From contig OY762911.1 in the NCBI GenBank assembly GCA_963666565.1, forward strand, positions 992,001 through 1,056,000: a stretch of DNA of 64,000 nt, written 5' to 3'. The notes under the pieces were generated by a model that had not been told where the DNA came from, searched no databases, and saw nothing but the letters and a program-made list of their open reading frames with translations. Each line of letters starts with the position of its first letter. Positions within the stretch are counted from its first letter, which is position 1. Positions 28,232-34,312 of this stretch are shown one piece after another. The translations under genes were made by a program, and so were the position numbers. The stretch is from Thermoanaerobaculia bacterium (GTDB taxonomy: Bacteria > Acidobacteriota > Thermoanaerobaculia > Multivoradales > Multivoraceae).

Positions 28232-30154
28232 GTGCATGGAGCCTGTTCCGCCTCGACCGGCTCACGGACCCGCGCGGCCGCCGCGGGTCCGGTCGCGACG
28301 GCGCTGGCGATCCTCGGGGTACTGGGCTGCCTGAGCACGGCCGCCGTGCTCCCGGCCCAGGAAGGTCCGACGCACGCCATCGCCTACTTCGGCGAGCCGC
28401 GGTACGCGGCGGACATCCCGCACTTCCCCTACGTCAACCCGGACGCGCCGAAGGGCGGTGAGATGCGTACCTGGCTGCCGGGCACCTTCAACAACGTCCA
28501 TCCCTACGCGGACATGGGGCGTACGCCGAGCTGGGCCAACTGGCGGGTCACGGTGATCACCTCCGATCGCCTGATGATGGGGTCGGAGGACGAGCTCTCG
28601 ACGCTCTACTGCCTGCTCTGCGAGACGGTCGAGGTCGCCGCGGACTACAGTTGGGTGGCTTACGCGCTGCGATCCGAGGCGCGGTGGCACGACGGCGTGC
28701 CGGTCACCGTCGATGACGTCGTCTGGACGTTCGAGACCCTGAAGACAGACGGCCCGGTCAGCTTCAAGGCGGCCTGGCGGCACGTCGAGGGCATCGAGCG
28801 TCTCGGGGAGCGCTCCTTCCGCTTCCTGCTCGGCGCCGAGGGAAGAAGCCGCAGGGCGGTGATGGAGGCGTCCGCCTTCCTGCCGATGGCGAAGCACTAC
28901 TGGCGGGACCGCGACTTCACGGCGACCAGCCTGGAGGGGCCGCTCGGCAACGGCGCCTACCGCGTCAAGGAAGTCGACCCCGGCCGGCGCCTGGTCTTCG
29001 AGCGCGTTCCGGACTACTGGGCGAAGGACCTCAACTTCAGGCGCGGCTACCACAACTTCGACCGCATCTCCGTCCTCTACTTCCGGGACATGAAGGCCGG
29101 CATCCAGGCCCTCAAGGCCCGCGTCGTCGACTACTTTCGCGACCAGGACGAGCGTGAGGTCGCCACCGCCTACGACTTCCCCGAGGTGGGCATGGGGCTC
29201 TTCAACAAGGAGACCTACCGGATGCGGATGACCTACGGGATGCACTGGTCGGTCGTCTTCAACACCCGCCGCCCGCCCTTCGAGGACATCCGCGTCCGCG
29301 AGGCGCTGACTCTGGCCTACAACTTCGACTGGGGCAACCGCGCCCTCCAGTACGGCGCGCTGCGGCGGAACACGACGTTCTTCCTGGGCTCGGAGATGGC
29401 GGCGCGCGGCCTGCCGTCGGCCGCGGAACTGGCGCTGCTCGAGCCGTTGCGGGAGCACGTCCCCGACCGCGTCTTCACGCACGAGTTCGCCCTTCCCGAA
29501 ACCGACGGCTACGGCCGCAACCGGGAGGCGCTGCTGCGGGCGGGAGAGCTGCTCGACGAGGCCGGCTGGGTCCTCCGCGACATGAGGCGCGTCGACGAGG
29601 CGACCGGCGAACCGCTGCGGTTCGAGATCATGGTCATGCTCAGGGAACACGAACGGATGATGGTCCCCTTCGTCGAGAACCTGACGCGCCTCGGCATCGA
29701 AGCGACCGTCCGCCGGATGGAGTCGAACATCTTCACGAACCGGGCGCGCCAGTACGACTTCGACATGACGATGCAGAAGATTTACACCCACCCCATCCCG
29801 GCGCCGGGCGGCATGCGCAGCTACCTGCACTCCCGGAGCGTCGCCCCACCGAACCTGTTGAACTACGCGGGCATCGGGAACCCGGCGGTCGACGTCCTGG
29901 TGGAGAAGGTGATCGCGGCCGAGACGGAAGAGGAGATGAACGTCGCCGGCCGGGCGCTCGACCGGGTGCTTCTGTGGAGCTTCCACGTCATTCCCGAGGG
30001 CGCCCCCAAGGGCCGCCATCTCCTGTATTGGGATCGCTTCGGCCATCCGCCCCTGGGGCACGAGCACCTGAACTGGACCGGCTTCCCGCAGCTCTGGTGG
30101 TTCGACGCGGAGAAGAGCGCCCGGGTCGACGCCGCTTTGGGCGAGAGCAGGTAG
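28232..30154 (+). CDS. yejA: ABC transporter substrate-binding protein (YejA-like)
   Basis: HFPYVNPDAPKGG, ARWHDGVPVTVDDV, ERVPDYWAKDL, RALDRVLLW, WWFD. Confidence 0.88.
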   Translation: MHGACSASTGSRTRAAAAGPVATALAILGVLGCLSTAAVLPAQEGPTHAIAYFGEPRYAADIPHFPYVNPDAPKGGEMRTWLPGTFNNVHPYADMGRTPSWANWRVTVITSDRLMMGSEDELSTLYCLLCETVEVAADYSWVAYALRSEARWHDGVPVTVDDVVWTFETLKTDGPVSFKAAWRHVEGIERLGERSFRFLLGAEGRSRRAVMEASAFLPMAKHYWRDRDFTATSLEGPLGNGAYRVKEVDPGRRLVFERVPDYWAKDLNFRRGYHNFDRISVLYFRDMKAGIQALKARVVDYFRDQDEREVATAYDFPEVGMGLFNKETYRMRMTYGMHWSVVFNTRRPPFEDIRVREALTLAYNFDWGNRALQYGALRRNTTFFLGSEMAARGLPSAAELALLEPLREHVPDRVFTHEFALPETDGYGRNREALLRAGELLDEAGWVLRDMRRVDEATGEPLRFEIMVMLREHERMMVPFVENLTRLGIEATVRRMESNIFTNRARQYDFDMTMQKIYTHPIPAPGGMRSYLHSRSVAPPNLLNYAGIGNPAVDVLVEKVIAAETEEEMNVAGRALDRVLLWSFHVIPEGAPKGRHLLYWDRFGHPPLGHEHLNWTGFPQLWWFDAEKSARVDAALGESR

Positions 30155-30327
30155 TGGCTGTCCTGCGAACCCGGCGCCTGTCGGTGCGCGGGTCTGCCAT
30201 CCGCGCGCCCGATGACGGGCGCGCGAACTGGGACGCTGGCGGCGCTGGGACGCGCCGCCAGGGTGCTGACCCGCTGCCGCCGAAGGCGGCTGGAAAGACG
30301 CGCCGGCCGGAGGCCGGCGACCTTTAG
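30154..30327 (+). other. Repeat-encoded bridge ORF (57 aa) between yejA and yejB
   Basis: GTG overlaps the yejA TAG; its TAG ends 1 nt before the yejB GTG. Confidence 0.45.
30183..30320 (+). repeat. REP-A with 73-nt module C in its loop
   Basis: Colinear with 25329-25468. Confidence 0.85.
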
Positions 30328-30328
30328 A

Positions 30329-31405
30329 GTGCTCCTCTACGTCCTGCGCCGGATCCTCCTCATGGTGCCGACCCTGGTCGGCGTGCTGCTGATCAACTTC
30401 GTCATCATCCAGGCGGCGCCCGGCGGCCCGGTCGACCAGGCGATCGCCCGGCTTCAGGGGACCGGCCTCGACGCGGGAGTCGGGCTGCTCGGCGGCGGTG
30501 CGGCCGACGCGACATTCGAGGCCGAACTCTCCGCCACCGGCGGCATCGACCCGGCGCTCATCGAGGAGCTCGAGCGGCAGTTCGGCTTCGACAAGCCGGC
30601 GCACGTCCGGTTCGGTCTCATGCTGCGCGACTACCTGCGCTTCGACCTGGGCGAGAGCTTCTACCAGGACGTGCCGGTCATCGACCTCGTCCTCGACCGG
30701 CTGCCGGTGTCGATGTCGCTGGGGCTGTGGACGCTGCTCATCGTCTACTCGGTTTCGATCCCGCTCGGCATCCGCAAGGCGACGGCCGACGGTTCTCCCT
30801 TCGACGTGTGGACCAGCGTCGTGATCCTCGTCGGCTACGCGATCCCCGGCTTCATCCTCGCCGTGCTGTTGATCGTGCTGTTCGCGCGCGGCGGGATGAT
30901 CGAGTACTTCCCGCTGCGCGGCCTGGTGTCCGACGACTTTGCCGACCTCGGGACGTGGGCCCAGGTCAAGGACTACTTCTGGCACCTGGTGCTGCCGATC
31001 ACGGCCCTGGTCGCCGGCAGCTTCGCGACGCTGACGACGCTGACGAAGAACTCGTTCCTCGACGAGATCAACAAGCAGTACGTGCTGACGGCCAAGGCCA
31101 AGGGTCTGAAGACGCGGCGCGTGCTCTACGGCCACGTGTTCCGCAACGCGATGCTGATCGTGATCGCCGGGTTCCCGCGGGCTCTCGTCGGCGCGCTGTT
31201 CACGGGCGTGCTGCTGGCGGAGATCATCTTCTCGCTGGACGGGCTGGGGCTGCTCGGCTTCGAGGCGATCGTCACCCGGGACTACCCGATCATCTTCGGA
31301 ACGCTGTACATCTCGACGCTGCTGGCGCTGGTGCTGCAGCTTCTGACCGACATCACCTACACGCTGACCGATCCGCGGATCGACTTCGAGACTCGCGACG
31401 TATGA
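30329..31405 (+). CDS. yejB: ABC transporter permease (YejB-like)
   Basis: YVLRRILLMVPTL, QAAPGGPVDQ, TKNSFLDEINKQYVLTAKAKGL, DPRIDFE. Confidence 0.93.
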   Translation: MLLYVLRRILLMVPTLVGVLLINFVIIQAAPGGPVDQAIARLQGTGLDAGVGLLGGGAADATFEAELSATGGIDPALIEELERQFGFDKPAHVRFGLMLRDYLRFDLGESFYQDVPVIDLVLDRLPVSMSLGLWTLLIVYSVSIPLGIRKATADGSPFDVWTSVVILVGYAIPGFILAVLLIVLFARGGMIEYFPLRGLVSDDFADLGTWAQVKDYFWHLVLPITALVAGSFATLTTLTKNSFLDEINKQYVLTAKAKGLKTRRVLYGHVFRNAMLIVIAGFPRALVGALFTGVLLAEIIFSLDGLGLLGFEAIVTRDYPIIFGTLYISTLLALVLQLLTDITYTLTDPRIDFETRDV

Positions 31406-31548
31406 GCAGTTCGGAACCCCGTGGCGCGGAAGCCGGCGCTTTGCGCCGGATGCCGGCGGGAACCCGGGTGGCGCGATCCGCGCCACCCGCGAACCAGTCC
31501 GTGCGCCCGCCATCGGGCGCACGGATGGCACCCCGGCGCACCCAGTGA
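31402..31548 (+). other. Repeat-encoded bridge ORF (48 aa) between yejB and yejE
   Basis: ATGA overlap with the yejB stop and GTGA overlap with the yejE start. Confidence 0.5.
31428..31545 (-). repeat. REP-B with 72-nt module C in its loop
   Basis: Reverse complement equals the 23996 REP-B plus tail, interrupted by module C. Confidence 0.82.
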
Positions 31549-32573
31549 GCAGCCTCGGGCGCAGGAGATGGGCCGCCTTCAAGGCGAACCGCCGCGGCTG
31601 GTGGTCCTTGCGGATCTTCCTCGTCGTCTTCGGCGCCAGCCTCTTCGCCGAGGTGCTCGCCAACGACAAGCCGCTCGTCGTCCGCCACGAGGGCCGGTTC
31701 TACCTGCCGATCGTCGCGGCGTACGCGGAGACCGAGTTCGGCGGCGTGTTCGAGACGGAGGCGGACTACCGCGAGGAGTACGTCAAGGAGCTCGTACGGG
31801 ACGGCGGCGGCTGGATGATCTGGCCGCCGATCCCCTACGCGCACGACACGATCGACTACGAACTGCCTGGTCCGGCCCCCTACCCGCCGTCGCGCCGGCA
31901 CTGGCTGGGCACCGACGACGTCGGCAAGGACGTCCTCGCGGGCCTCATCTACGGCATCCGGCTGTCCTTCCTGTTCGGACTCGTGCTCACGGCCCTGAGC
32001 TCGATCGTCGGCGTGCTGGTGGGCGCGGTCCAGGGCTACCTGGGAGGCAAGGTGGACCTCTTCGGCCAGCGCCTGATCGAGATCTGGGCCGGGCTGCCGA
32101 TCCTCTTCGTGCTGATCATCCTCTCCAGCATCGTCGAGTCGAACGTCTTCTGGCTGCTCGGCATCCTGGTCGCGTTCAGTTGGATGGCGCTCGTGGGCGT
32201 GGTGCGGGCCGAGGTGCTGCGCGCGCGCAACTTCCAGTATGTGACGGCCGCGCGGGCCCTGGGAGCGGGGGACCGGCGGATCGTCCGACGGCATGTCCTG
32301 CCCAACGCGATGGTCGCGACCTTCACCTTCCTGCCCTTCATCCTCACCGGCTCGATCACCCTGCTCACGTCGCTCGACTTCCTCGGCTTCGGCCTGCCCG
32401 CCGACGCGCCCTCGCTCGGCCGGCTGCTCGCCCAGGGCCGCGCCAACCTGCACGCCCCTTGGCTGGGTGTCATGTCCTTCTTTACGCTGGCGACGCTCTT
32501 GACGCTCGTCATCTTCATCGGCGAAGCGCTGCGCGACGCCTTCGATCCACGCCGCACTGGGATGCAGTCGTGA
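31545..32573 (+). CDS. yejE: ABC transporter permease (YejE-like)
   Basis: RRWAAFKANRRGWWSL, ANDKPL, HWLGTDD, TSLDFLGFGLP, GEALRDAFDPR. Confidence 0.93.
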   Translation: MSSLGRRRWAAFKANRRGWWSLRIFLVVFGASLFAEVLANDKPLVVRHEGRFYLPIVAAYAETEFGGVFETEADYREEYVKELVRDGGGWMIWPPIPYAHDTIDYELPGPAPYPPSRRHWLGTDDVGKDVLAGLIYGIRLSFLFGLVLTALSSIVGVLVGAVQGYLGGKVDLFGQRLIEIWAGLPILFVLIILSSIVESNVFWLLGILVAFSWMALVGVVRAEVLRARNFQYVTAARALGAGDRRIVRRHVLPNAMVATFTFLPFILTGSITLLTSLDFLGFGLPADAPSLGRLLAQGRANLHAPWLGVMSFFTLATLLTLVIFIGEALRDAFDPRRTGMQS

Positions 32574-32731
32574 AGGAGCTCGGCTTCGCCTCGCGCGTGT
32601 TCCTCAGAAAGCCGGCGGGGACGCCGGCGCACCCAGTCTGCAACTCCGTCGACGACACACACTGGGTGCGCCGGCGTCCCCGCCGGCTTCTGAAAGGCGC
32701 GCCGCGAAGCGGCGACCATTTGGCTCCGTGA
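32570..32731 (+). other. Repeat-encoded bridge ORF (53 aa) between yejE and yejF
   Basis: GTGA overlaps at both ends. Confidence 0.5.
32611..32720. repeat. Back-to-back inverted REP-B pair
   Basis: 32611-32636 and 32662-32687 are exact reverse complements. Confidence 0.9.
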
Positions 32732-34312
32732 CGCCCTTCCTCGAGATCGCCGACCTCGCCGTCGCCTTCGACGGCGTCCAGGTCGTCCACGGGCTCGACC
32801 TGCGCCTCCACCGGGGCGAGTCGGTCGCCCTGGTCGGCGAGTCCGGCTCGGGCAAGTCGGTCACAGCGCTGTCGGTCCTTCAACTGCTTTCGTATCCCCG
32901 CGCCTCGCATCCGACCGGTTCGATCCTCGTGGACGGCGAAGAAGTCATGGGCGCCGGCGAGCAGGAGATGCGCGCCATCCGCGGCAGCCGGATCTCGATG
33001 GTCTTCCAGGAGCCGATGACCTCGCTCAATCCGCTCCACACGATCCAGAAGCAGGTCGAGGAGGTGCTCGCCCTGCACGCGAATCGCCCTGCACGCCGGA
33101 CTGCGCGGCGCCGCCGCCCGCGAGCGGACAGTCGAGCTGCTCGAACTCGTCGGCCTGCAAGAGGCGCGCGAACGGCTGAAGTCCTATCCGCATCAGCTCT
33201 CCGGCGGCCAGCGCCAGCGCGTGATGATCGCGATGGCGATCGCCAACGAGCCCGACCTGCTGATCGCCGACGAGCCGACGACCGCGCTCGACGTCACCGT
33301 CCAGGCCCAGATCCTCGCGCTGATCAAGGAGCTGCAGGAGCGGCTCGGGATGGCGCTGCTGCTGATCACCCACGATCTCGGGATCGTCCGCGCGATGGCC
33401 GACCGCGTCTACGTGATGGAGCAGGGGCACGTCGTCGAGGAGGGCGAGACGTCCGAGGTCTTCGTGCGGCCGGCGCATCCCTATACGCGCAAGCTGATCG
33501 ACGCCGAGCCGCGGGGTGCCTGCCCGATCCCGGAAGACGAAGCGCCGCCGCTGGTCGAGACGAAGGACGTGACCGTGGAGTTCCCGCTGCGAGGCTGGCC
33601 GCGGAAGCGCTCGCTCGTCGCCGTCGACGACGTCTCGCTCCGGGTCCGCCAGGGACACAGCCTCGGCGTCGTCGGCGAGTCGGGCAGCGGCAAGACGACC
33701 CTCGCCATGGCGATCGTACGCCTGCTCCAGAGCCGCGGCGAGATCGTCTTCGATGGCCGGTCGATCGACGGTCTGGGCTTCAGGCAGCTCAAGCCGCTGC
33801 GCAGGTCGATGCAGATCGTCTTCCAGGACCCGTACGGCAGCCTGTCGCCGCGCCTGACCGTCGAGGAGATCGTCTCCGAGGGGCTGGTCATCCACGAGCC
33901 GGCCATGAGCGCGGGCGAACGCCGCGACCGGGTCGCCGAAGTCCTGACCGAAGTCGGCCTCGAACCGGAGATCGCGCGCCGCTACCCGCACGAGTTCTCC
34001 GGCGGCCAGCGCCAGCGCATCGCGGTCGCCCGCGCGATGATCCTCCGGCCCCGCTTCGTCGTCCTCGACGAACCGACGTCCTCGCTCGACATGACGGTCC
34101 AGGCGCAGATCGTGGAGCTGTTGCTCGATCTCCAGCAGCGCCACGGCCTGACCTACCTCTTCATCAGCCACGACCTGAAGGTCGTGCGCGCCCTCTGCGA
34201 CGAGATCGCGGTGATGAAGGACGGCCGTATCGTCGAGCAGGGTCCGGCCGGCCAACTCTTCGATGCGCCGCGCGAGTCCTACACGCGTGCCCTCATGAAC
34301 GCAGCGCTTTGA
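32728..34312 (+). pseudogene. yejF: Dual-domain ABC ATPase (YejF-like), frameshifted by a 16-bp insertion near 33068-33096
   Basis: Two GESGSGK Walker A motifs in different frames; removing 16 bp gives 523 codons. Confidence 0.85.

What the first reader, a model, noticed from the sequence alone, without database searches (positions are those of the whole stretch)
30154..32731. Repeat-encoded bridge ORFs preserve translational coupling at all three internal yejABEF junctions
Seen: each junction holds a different repeat, spanned by a short ORF that starts in the upstream stop and ends at the downstream start. They are 30154-30327 (TAGTG...TAG-A-GTG, 57 aa), 31402-31548 (ATGA...GTGA, 48 aa) and 32570-32731 (GTGA...GTGA, 53 aa). 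At the second junction both the bridge and yejE begin RTGAGCAG, which looks like duplication of the start region on insertion. Known: RTGA overlaps mediate translational coupling, and untranslated structured mRNA causes polarity. Inference: insertions survive when ribosomes are relayed across them, creating new microproteins.
Basis: partly seen in the sequence, partly recalled or inferred. Interest (0 to 1): 0.85.

Follow-up and report, generated by a model that had tools for sequence, protein, structure and literature searches.

The report
Repeat-borne relay ORFs in yejABEF
Small palindromic repeats sit on all three internal gene junctions of a peptide-transporter operon, each leaving a short reading frame that could pass ribosomes to the next gene; related species suggest such frames are favoured, but the principle is already known from mycobacterial MIRU repeats.

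Summary
All three gaps are dispersed GC-rich REP-type palindromes, but not three different repeats: J1 and J2 share an inverted 63-nt module, and J2 and J3 share a REP unit.

Open frames are cheap at 70% GC. J2 has no stop in any of six frames, and a 1135-aa antisense ORF spans J1 and J2. The information lies in frame and geometry. The overlaps come mostly from the ancestral junctions (RTGA at yejB/E and yejE/F, TAG-3nt-GTG at yejA/B).

- **Window alone:** chance of three bridges about 0.011.
- **36 congeners, 31 length-distinct insert alleles:** 14 in-frame N-terminal extensions, 13 bridges, 4 early stops and 0 wrong-frame read-throughs. Expected were 6.4, 5.5, 8.2 and 10.9.
- **Bridge versus early stop alone:** marginal (P=0.07).
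- **Genome-wide outside yej:** bridges at chance (6 vs 5.1), in-frame inserts enriched (31 vs 10.8).

Translation across these inserts is therefore constrained, and a ribosome relay is plausible but unproven. The peptides look like by-products.

MIRU repeats are a published precedent, and this scan noted a similar secD-secF case in another genome. I class it as a new variant of a known kind.

The parts
28232..30154 (+). yejA-like substrate-binding protein gene (family-5 SBP). The stop is TAG 30152-30154 and the start is uncertain.
   Evidence: ORF. Only weak SBP-family hits, all below cut-off. My own crude gene caller puts the start at 28346.
30154..30327 (+). Bridge ORF 1, 57 codons. It starts as TAGTG on the yejA stop and ends at TAG, 1 nt before the yejB GTG.
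   Evidence: Shorter versions of the same arrangement (29 and 34 codons) occur in L004/L023 and in L006/L007/L026.
30155..30328 (.). J1 insert, a composite REP-type repeat. The family core is about 30178-30318. The module 30183-30245 recurs inverted in J2.
   Evidence: 432 HSPs in the own genome. Alignment of copies. Inverted repeat I1. RNA fold -112 kcal/mol, z -4.3.
30329..31405 (+). yejB permease gene (GTG start, TGA stop).
   Evidence: NF011712 YejB scores 467 bits against a cut-off of 445, residues 2-356 on profile 2-364.
31402..31548 (+). Bridge ORF 2, 48 codons. ATGA lies on the yejB stop and GTGA on the yejE start.
   Evidence: It is the only bridge allele among the 17 loci with an insert at this junction.
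31406..31544 (.). J2 insert, a REP-type repeat flanked by the direct repeat ATGAGCAG (31402-31409) and GTGAGCAG (31545-31552).
   Evidence: 128 HSPs. The family consensus ends at ...CACCCAGT. No stop in any of six frames. Fold -85.5 kcal/mol, z -3.0.
31545..32573 (+). yejE permease gene (GTG start, TGA stop).
   Evidence: NF011596 scores 474 bits against a cut-off of 439.
32570..32731 (+). Bridge ORF 3, 53 codons, with GTGA at both ends. Its first six codons match the native yejF N-terminus seen in L025/L026.
   Evidence: Exact-overlap bridges occur at this junction in 9 of the 19 loci that carry an insert.
32574..32727 (.). J3 insert, a long hairpin with arms 32609-32640 and 32658-32689 (97% complementary). 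The base of the fold pairs the 5' junction with the yejF start region.
   Evidence: I2. Fold -114.5 kcal/mol, z -10.3, with 0 of 200 shuffles as stable. 215 HSPs. Alignments of copies.
32728..34312 (+). yejF double-ATPase gene, read in two frames because of a 16-nt insert at about 33068-33094.
   Evidence: Translations. NF011713 matches in two pieces, 144 and 556 bits. The 16 nt are absent in the relatives aligned and from contigs of runs X3 and X4.

Best explanation
SHOWN: REP-type palindromic repeats have landed exactly on the stop/start junctions of this yejABEF operon, and have done so repeatedly in its genus. The ancestral junctions were tight: an RTGA overlap at yejB/E and yejE/F, and TAG-3nt-GTG or a short plain spacer at yejA/B. 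Each insert leaves an old start codon on the upstream stop and a stop codon at the working downstream start. At J2 this comes from an 8-nt flanking repeat. At J3 the old yejF start and first six codons are kept. At J1 the TAGTG start is made by the insert and the TAG beside the GTG is kept. Stops are rare at 70-75% GC, so a bridge ORF appears whenever the insert length has the right remainder mod 3. SHOWN: surviving alleles in 36 congeners are filtered. Nearly all are in-frame N-terminal extensions of the downstream protein or ORFs ending at or within 4 nt of its start. None runs out of frame into it. INFERRED: ribosomes finishing the upstream gene reinitiate at the old start, translate through and melt the hairpins, and terminate at the true start. 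The true starts lack a Shine-Dalgarno motif at the usual distance, and the J3 start is buried in the hairpin base. Termination-reinitiation then passes the ribosomes on. The peptides themselves are by-products.
For: Geometry. All six overlaps or spacings are -4, -1 or +1 nt. About 20 nt of gap nearly abolishes termination-reinitiation (abstract of PMC10666635). Filter across the genus, de-duplicated by junction and length: of 31 alleles, 14 are in-frame (expected 6.4), 13 bridge (5.5), 4 early stop (8.2) and 0 read-through (10.9). P(27 or more relay-competent) = 1.2e-8. All 7 of 7 alleles without their own downstream start are in-frame (P=7e-5). Among the 24 with their own start there are 13 bridges (expected 5.4) and 0 read-throughs (expected 7.3, P=1e-4). 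Without the window's alleles, 10 of 14 not-in-frame alleles are bridges (expected 4.5, P=0.0026). At J2, 15 of 17 insert loci are multiples of 3. Shine-Dalgarno motifs peak at -15 to -10 genome-wide, but the sequence before the yejB, yejE and yejF starts shows none there. Strong folds. No promoter-like or terminator-like site lies in the inserts. Genome-wide the direction is the same: in-frame 31 vs 10.8 and read-through 4 vs 17.9. Precedent: MIRUs.
Against: There is no evidence of translation. Bridge versus early stop alone is not significant (P=0.069). Early-stop alleles persist (L003 and L010 at J3; L019, L029 and L031 at J1), so a relay is not obligatory. Outside yej, bridges are at chance (6 vs 5.1), although those gene starts come from my own crude caller. 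Alleles are related and patchy on the tree, so the P values overstate. Class definitions were fixed only after I had seen the data. The window's J2 is the only out-of-frame allele at that junction apart from the broken L037, and the same assembly carries a yejF frameshift. This operon copy may therefore be under relaxed selection, or the assembly may be imperfect. Unique contigs did not cover 31473-31517.
Confidence: 0.55

Rival explanations
1. Pure by-product. The ORFs are scars of insertion at tight junctions in stop-poor DNA. The downstream genes are translated independently or weakly. Selection only removes alleles that break the downstream protein or let ribosomes run over its start out of frame.
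For: J2 has 0 stops in six frames. A 1135-aa antisense ORF spans J1 and J2. The window-only chance is 0.011 to 0.09. Bridge versus early stop gives P=0.069. Genome-wide bridges are at chance. Early-stop alleles exist.
Against: Bridges are 2.4 times the expected number among alleles that have their own start (13 vs 5.4). Length variants of one insert lineage keep the bridge frame: J1 has 29, 34 and 57 codons, and J3 has 34, 53, 61 and 87 codons. There is no Shine-Dalgarno motif at the usual distance. The yejF start is paired in the J3 hairpin.
Confidence: 0.3
2. The bridge at J2 (and the yejF frameshift) reflect a decaying operon copy or assembly errors. The true allele would be in-frame, like those of the relatives.
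For: 15 of 17 J2 insert loci are in-frame. The 16-nt yejF insert is unique to this assembly and absent from contigs of X3 and X4, while X1 gave no cover there.
Against: Contigs of three samples match 31141-31472 and 31518-31757 exactly, and no indel is listed inside J2 for X1, X3 or X4. The native GTGAGCAG start is intact.
Confidence: 0.07
3. Wrong starts. The downstream genes begin further upstream inside the repeats (for example yejB at ATG 30212), so the 'bridges' overlap real coding sequence.
For: The yejB frame is open back to ATG 30212. In-frame REP extensions are common in relatives and genome-wide.
Against: yejE GTG 31545 is the first start of its ORF. ATG 30212 is not on the yejA stop.
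Confidence: 0.05
4. The three ORFs encode functional microproteins.
For: Only that they are open and well placed.
Against: They have Arg/Pro/Ala/Gly-rich composition. Lengths differ among species, and the junctions are empty in many congeners.
Confidence: 0.03

Closest known systems
MIRUs, mycobacterial interspersed repetitive units (Supply et al. 1997). I saw only passages of the reviews PMC12548453 and PMC3184786, not the original paper.
   Same: A mobile intergenic repeat inside operons that inserts at start codons. [quoted passage not shown] This is thought to make the insertion nearly harmless.
   Different: MIRUs are 40-100 bp units, often in tandem, in Mycobacterium. Here the repeats are GC-rich REP-type hairpin composites in an Acidobacteriota genus, with no sequence relation and no tandem units. 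In-frame extension is the commoner outcome here.
Intragenic and ORF-abutting GTAG/CGTC REPs and Rickettsia RPEs (Di Nocera et al. 2013, PMC3733652; passages seen).
   Same: REP termini supply TAG stops. REPs lie inside ORFs, many at N-termini, and encode 20-80 residues.
   Different: That paper suspects most N-terminal cases are misannotated and extragenic. Here the mod-3 filter (15 of 17 at J2) argues that they are translated. Bridge ORFs are not described in the passages I saw.
Termination-reinitiation coupling at -4/-1 overlaps (Huber et al. 2019 seen in a search listing; 2023 abstract).
   Same: The same overlap geometries (ATGA/GTGA, TAGTG), and a heteromeric transporter.
   Different: Here two such overlaps are chained through a non-gene ORF.
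Synthetic bicistronic designs and short 'nonsense' leader ORFs (abstract of PMC13255528; passage of PMC12548453).
   Same: A short ORF delivers ribosomes and removes repressive structure at the target start.
   Different: Those are engineered and have an internal RBS. This case is natural and repeat-derived.
Earlier finding of this scan, e1-3349976: secD-secF split by a repeat, with a duplicated secF start and a 38-codon bridge ORF in another genome.
   Same: The same scar architecture.
   Different: A single junction, in another phylum. I did not test it.

Membership tests
yejABEF-type peptide/microcin C ABC importer | YejB and YejE permease models score above the curated cut-off. | tested here: met
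   467 bits against 445, and 474 against 439.
yejABEF-type peptide/microcin C ABC importer | An intact double-ATPase YejF. | tested here: not met
   In this assembly the match is split at a 16-nt insert (144 + 556 bits against a cut-off of 834). Contigs of X3 and X4 lack the insert.
yejABEF-type peptide/microcin C ABC importer | A YejA-type binding protein. | tested here: inconclusive
   Only weak family-5 SBP hits, all below cut-off.
REP/REPIN elements | Short GC-rich palindromes, many dispersed copies, mostly intergenic. | tested here: met
   The 27-nt unit has 120 copies at 4 or fewer mismatches. 790 of 2221 intergenic regions of 40 nt or more match at least 5 others.
REP/REPIN elements | A conserved GTAG tag at one end. 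| tested here: inconclusive
   Several J1-type copies are preceded by GTAG, and the yejA stop lies in GGTAG. I did not count this systematically.
REP/REPIN elements | A RAYT (Y1 transposase) gene flanked by the REPs. | tested here: inconclusive
   One Y1_Tnp hit, 36.3 bits. No copy of this REP unit lies within about 4 kb of it.
MIRU-type coupled intercistronic repeat ORF | The ORF in the repeat has the same orientation as the genes, its start lies on the upstream stop, and its stop lies on the downstream start. | tested here: met
   J2 and J3 are exact. J1 has a 1-nt spacer.
MIRU-type coupled intercistronic repeat ORF | 40-100 bp MIRU units of mycobacteria, often in tandem. | tested here: not met
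   No tandem units, palindromic composites, a different phylum (earlier notes). This works like a MIRU but is not a member.
Termination-reinitiation coupling | Downstream translation depends on upstream termination. | not testable with these tools
   Only the geometry is shown.
In-frame intragenic REP (RPE-like) | The repeat is read in frame as part of the host protein. | tested here: not met
   Not met in the window (all three inserts are out of frame). Met in relatives: 15 of 17 J2 insert loci and 5 of 19 J3 insert loci.

The most novel reading that the evidence does not exclude
REP-type palindromes colonise tight operon junctions by exploiting termination-reinitiation. An insert survives only if ribosomes arriving from the upstream gene are carried across it, either as an in-frame leader of the next protein or as a relay ORF that ends on the next start and melts the hairpin that hides it. 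If so, these elements are natural 'bicistronic designs', and the rule would predict which insertions persist in any REP-rich genome.
Probability: 0.3. Interest if true: 0.65.

Novelty: new variant of a known kind. Interest (0 to 1): 0.45.

Why it matters
If the relay is real, it explains how strongly structured selfish repeats can sit inside operons for stoichiometric membrane complexes without polar effects. It also gives a sequence-only rule (frame class of the old-start ORF) for which insertions persist. The comparative census bears on an open point in the REP literature. REPs found at the N-termini of ORFs are usually suspected to be annotation errors. Here the mod-3 filter argues that they are translated. 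The practical message for annotation is twofold. Short REP-borne ORFs between genes need not be genes. Starts placed downstream of a REP may be wrong when the frame is open back to an overlap start.

Tried and rejected
- **Rfam** on 29900-33000 gave only sub-threshold miRNA-hairpin hits on the J3 palindrome (32 bits against a gathering score of 93).
- **Promoter/terminator scan:** nothing in the inserts.
- **First genome-wide frame tally**. Non-repeat gaps showed many apparent bridges. I traced these to start miscalls by my own gene caller, because the +1 frame of real coding sequence often ends at RTGA. I therefore used only REP-bearing gaps with a replacement null.
- **RNA run X22.** Its contigs are 90-93% alike, so they come from a relative. 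One contig joins the right arm of J3 to the yejF start. Contigs cannot show a single transcript or translation.
- **RAYT flanks:** no REP unit near the single Y1_Tnp hit.
- **The 'GGATCACCTCC' count** was uninformative.
- **Multi-step relays.** L003 can be read as a two-step chain, but chains succeed in about half of the null draws, so I give this no weight.
- **Row dropped:** the L037 J2 allele was left out of the statistics. The first 29 codons of yejE are missing there and the old-start frame is out of frame. It counts against the rule.
- **Other exclusions:** L030 at J3 (2134-nt IS insertion) and gaps under 40 nt were also outside the null.
- **Not seen:** supplementary tables of PMC3733652, which list intragenic REPs.
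Full report
**What is there**

The window lies in a single-contig 4.79-Mb genome of 70% GC. Earlier notes of this scan describe the organism as an uncultured sponge-symbiont acidobacterium.

Positions 28232-34312 hold a yejABEF-type ABC importer operon.
- YejB and YejE pass their NCBIfam cut-offs (467 against 445 bits, and 474 against 439).
- YejF matches in two pieces.
- The binding protein gives only weak family-5 hits.

There is one qualification. At J1 the bridge ends at TAG one base before the yejB GTG, so it is adjacent rather than overlapping.

**The gaps are repeats, but not three different ones**

Each gap has many relatives in the same genome: 432, 128 and 215 blastn HSPs. A 63-nt module of J1 (30183-30245) recurs inverted in J2 (31480-31542, 83% complementary). 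J2 and J3 share a 27-nt REP unit that has 120 copies at 4 or fewer mismatches.

With my own gene calls, 790 of 2221 intergenic regions of 40 nt or more match at least five others.

The inserts fold strongly as RNA:
- J1: -112 kcal/mol, z -4.3
- J2: -85.5 kcal/mol, z -3.0
- J3: -114.5 kcal/mol, z -10.3

At J3 the base of the hairpin pairs the 5' junction with the yejF start region. No Rfam family reaches threshold. No promoter-like or terminator-like site lies in the inserts.

One Y1-transposase hit exists in the genome, but I found no copy of this REP unit beside it.

**Openness is cheap; geometry is the signal**

J2 has no stop codon in any of the six frames. Each bridge frame is open long before the named start. 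A 1135-aa antisense ORF covers J1 and J2. The mere existence of open frames therefore says nothing.

What matters is where the ORFs start and end. Relatives show where those ends come from. I collected the orthologous locus from 36 of the 41 other species of the genus.

- **J2 (yejB/yejE).** 19 of 36 loci are empty and read gtGTGAGC..., with the yejE start overlapping the yejB stop. The window has that start region on both sides of its insert.
- **J3 (yejE/yejF).** 18 of 37 loci have gaps of 2 to 12 nt, most with a GTGA or ATGA overlap. The window's bridge begins with the old yejF start. Its first six codons equal the yejF N-terminus of L025 and L026.
- **J1 (yejA/yejB).** The ancestral state is TAG-3nt-GTG (5 of 31 loci) or a plain 23-47-nt spacer (16 of 31). 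Here the TAGTG start is made by the insert, and only the TAG next to the GTG is inherited.

**Chance for the window alone**

I kept the flanks fixed and replaced the interior with random pieces of REP-bearing convergent or divergent intergenic DNA of the same genome. The length was varied by -1, 0 or +1.

A bridge arises with probability 0.21, 0.225 and 0.225 at the three junctions. That is about 0.011 for all three. If in-frame extension also counts as preserving coupling, it is about 0.09.

**The genus-wide test**

The same junctions carry inserts in many congeners, distributed patchily on the gene tree.

| Junction | Loci with insert | In-frame from the start on the upstream stop | Bridge | Early stop | Other |
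|---|---|---|---|---|---|
| J2 | 17 | 15 (extensions of 7 to 74 codons) | 1 (the window) | 0 | 1 (L037, lacks the first 29 codons of yejE) |
| J3 | 19 | 5 | 9 exact overlap + 2 ending 3-4 nt before the start | 2 | 1 (2134-nt IS110-family insertion) |
| J1 | 9 REP-type | 0 | 6 adjacent | 3 | 0 |

I then de-duplicated by junction and length, which leaves 31 alleles.

| Class | Observed | Expected |
|---|---|---|
| In-frame extension | 14 | 6.4 |
| Bridge | 13 | 5.5 |
| Early stop | 4 | 8.2 |
| Wrong-frame read-through | 0 | 10.9 |

- Relay-competent alleles: 27 of 31, P=1.2e-8.
- All 7 alleles without their own downstream start are in-frame (P=7e-5).
- The 24 alleles with their own start show 13 bridges (expected 5.4) and no read-through (expected 7.3, P=1e-4).
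- Leaving out the window's own alleles, 10 of 14 not-in-frame alleles are bridges (expected 4.5, P=0.0026).
- If selection is allowed simply to remove read-through, bridge versus early stop is 10 of 14 against 6.9 expected, P=0.069.

These P values treat length-distinct alleles as independent, which they are not entirely. I also fixed the class definitions after seeing the data.

I used my own crude gene caller and excluded yej. That left 58 REP-type co-directional gaps whose upstream stop carries an overlapping start.

| Class | Observed | Expected |
|---|---|---|
| In-frame | 31 | 10.8 |
| Bridge | 6 | 5.1 |
| Early stop | 17 | 24.2 |
| Read-through | 4 | 17.9 |

The general rule in this genome is in-frame retention and avoidance of out-of-frame read-through. 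Double-overlap bridges as such are at chance outside yej.

**Mechanism**

Shine-Dalgarno motifs peak at -15 to -10 before called starts genome-wide. The sequence before the yejB, yejE and yejF starts shows no such motif at that distance. The nearest is a GGAGG about 20 nt before yejB.

Published reporter work finds that about 20 nt of untranslated spacer almost abolishes termination-reinitiation (abstract of PMC10666635). A 140-175-nt structured spacer would therefore uncouple these genes unless it is translated.

The most likely reading is that ribosomes reinitiate at the old start, unwind the hairpins and terminate on the real start. This step is inferred, not shown. The peptides are Arg/Pro/Ala/Gly-rich and vary in length between species. 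I take them to be by-products.

**Caveats specific to this genome**

yejF carries a 16-nt insert that breaks the frame.
- It is absent in the relatives aligned.
- It is absent from contigs of two other samples (X3, X4).
- The run that best matches the window (X1) gave no cover at that place.

The same contigs confirm 31141-31472 and 31518-31757 exactly. No indel is listed within J2 for X1, X3 or X4. However, 31473-31517 was not covered by listed unique pieces. This operon copy may thus be under relaxed selection, or the assembly may be locally imperfect.

**What is known**

The idea has a precedent. A 2025 review (PMC12548453, passage seen) describes MIRUs. It says they insert at start codons so that an ORF within the repeat is coupled at -4 nt to the gene, citing Supply et al. 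1997.

PMC3184786 (passages) notes that MIRU ends overlap the adjacent genes of a polycistron.

Di Nocera et al. 2013 (PMC3733652, passages) report that GTAG REP termini supply TAG stops. They also report that REPs occur inside ORFs, and they suspect that N-terminal cases are mostly misannotation.

My searches found no paper describing REP-type palindromes with double-overlap relay ORFs, and none with a frame-class census across species. Subscription journals are mostly outside the library searched.

This scan has already noted a similar secD-secF scar in another genome.

**Verdict**

Translation continuity across these inserts is under selection. The bridge form is enriched at this operon but is not shown to be required. 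I class the finding as a new variant of a known kind.

Noticed in passing
window 33068-33094: A 16-nt duplication-like insert frameshifts yejF. It is absent in the relatives aligned and in contigs of runs X3 and X4. Run X1 gave no cover at that place.
   Followed up: yes
window 28262-31669 (- strand): A 1135-aa antisense ORF runs across yejA, J1, yejB and J2. It shows how easily frames stay open at 70% GC.
   Followed up: partly
L016, L017, L032, L021, L030, L031, L033 (yejB/yejE junction): In these relatives the only start for yejE is the RTG on the yejB stop. REP-type sequence is therefore read as a 23-74-codon N-terminal leader of the permease.
   Followed up: partly
L030 (G047), between yejE and yejF: A 2134-nt insertion carries an IS110-family transposase (DEDD_Tnp_IS110 119.6 bits, Transposase_20 56.5 bits) within REP-type sequence.
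   Followed up: partly
L037 (G041), yejB/yejE junction: The REP insert joins directly to about codon 30 of yejE. The first 29 codons are missing, so this is either a broken gene or a misassembly in a fragmented genome.
   Followed up: partly
L025, L026 (yejE/yejF junction): The yejF N-terminus here (six codons) equals the 5' end of the J3 insert lineage. This looks like a footprint of excision, or like the source of that end.
   Followed up: no
L004 and L023 (both G001): Two near-identical copies of the operon lie on two contigs. They differ by presence (106 nt) or absence (5 nt) of the J3 insert, so this is either strain polymorphism or a duplicate.
   Followed up: no
L003 (G016), yejE/yejF junction: The old-start ORF stops at an internal GTGTGA. 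The overlapping GTG opens a second ORF that ends on the yejF start, giving a two-step chain. Chains succeed in about half of the null draws.
   Followed up: partly
G000 genome coordinates 336974-337226, 603976-604054, 1068850-1069000, 1877225-1877321, 2537541-2537654, 2631400-2631787: Six further REP-bearing co-directional gaps with a bridge-type ORF by my crude gene calls. In addition, 31 of the 58 such gaps are in-frame with the overlap start.
   Followed up: no
G000:C1:749427-749648: The single Y1_Tnp (IS200/RAYT-type) hit of the genome. No copy of the 27-nt REP unit lies within about 4 kb of it.
   Followed up: partly
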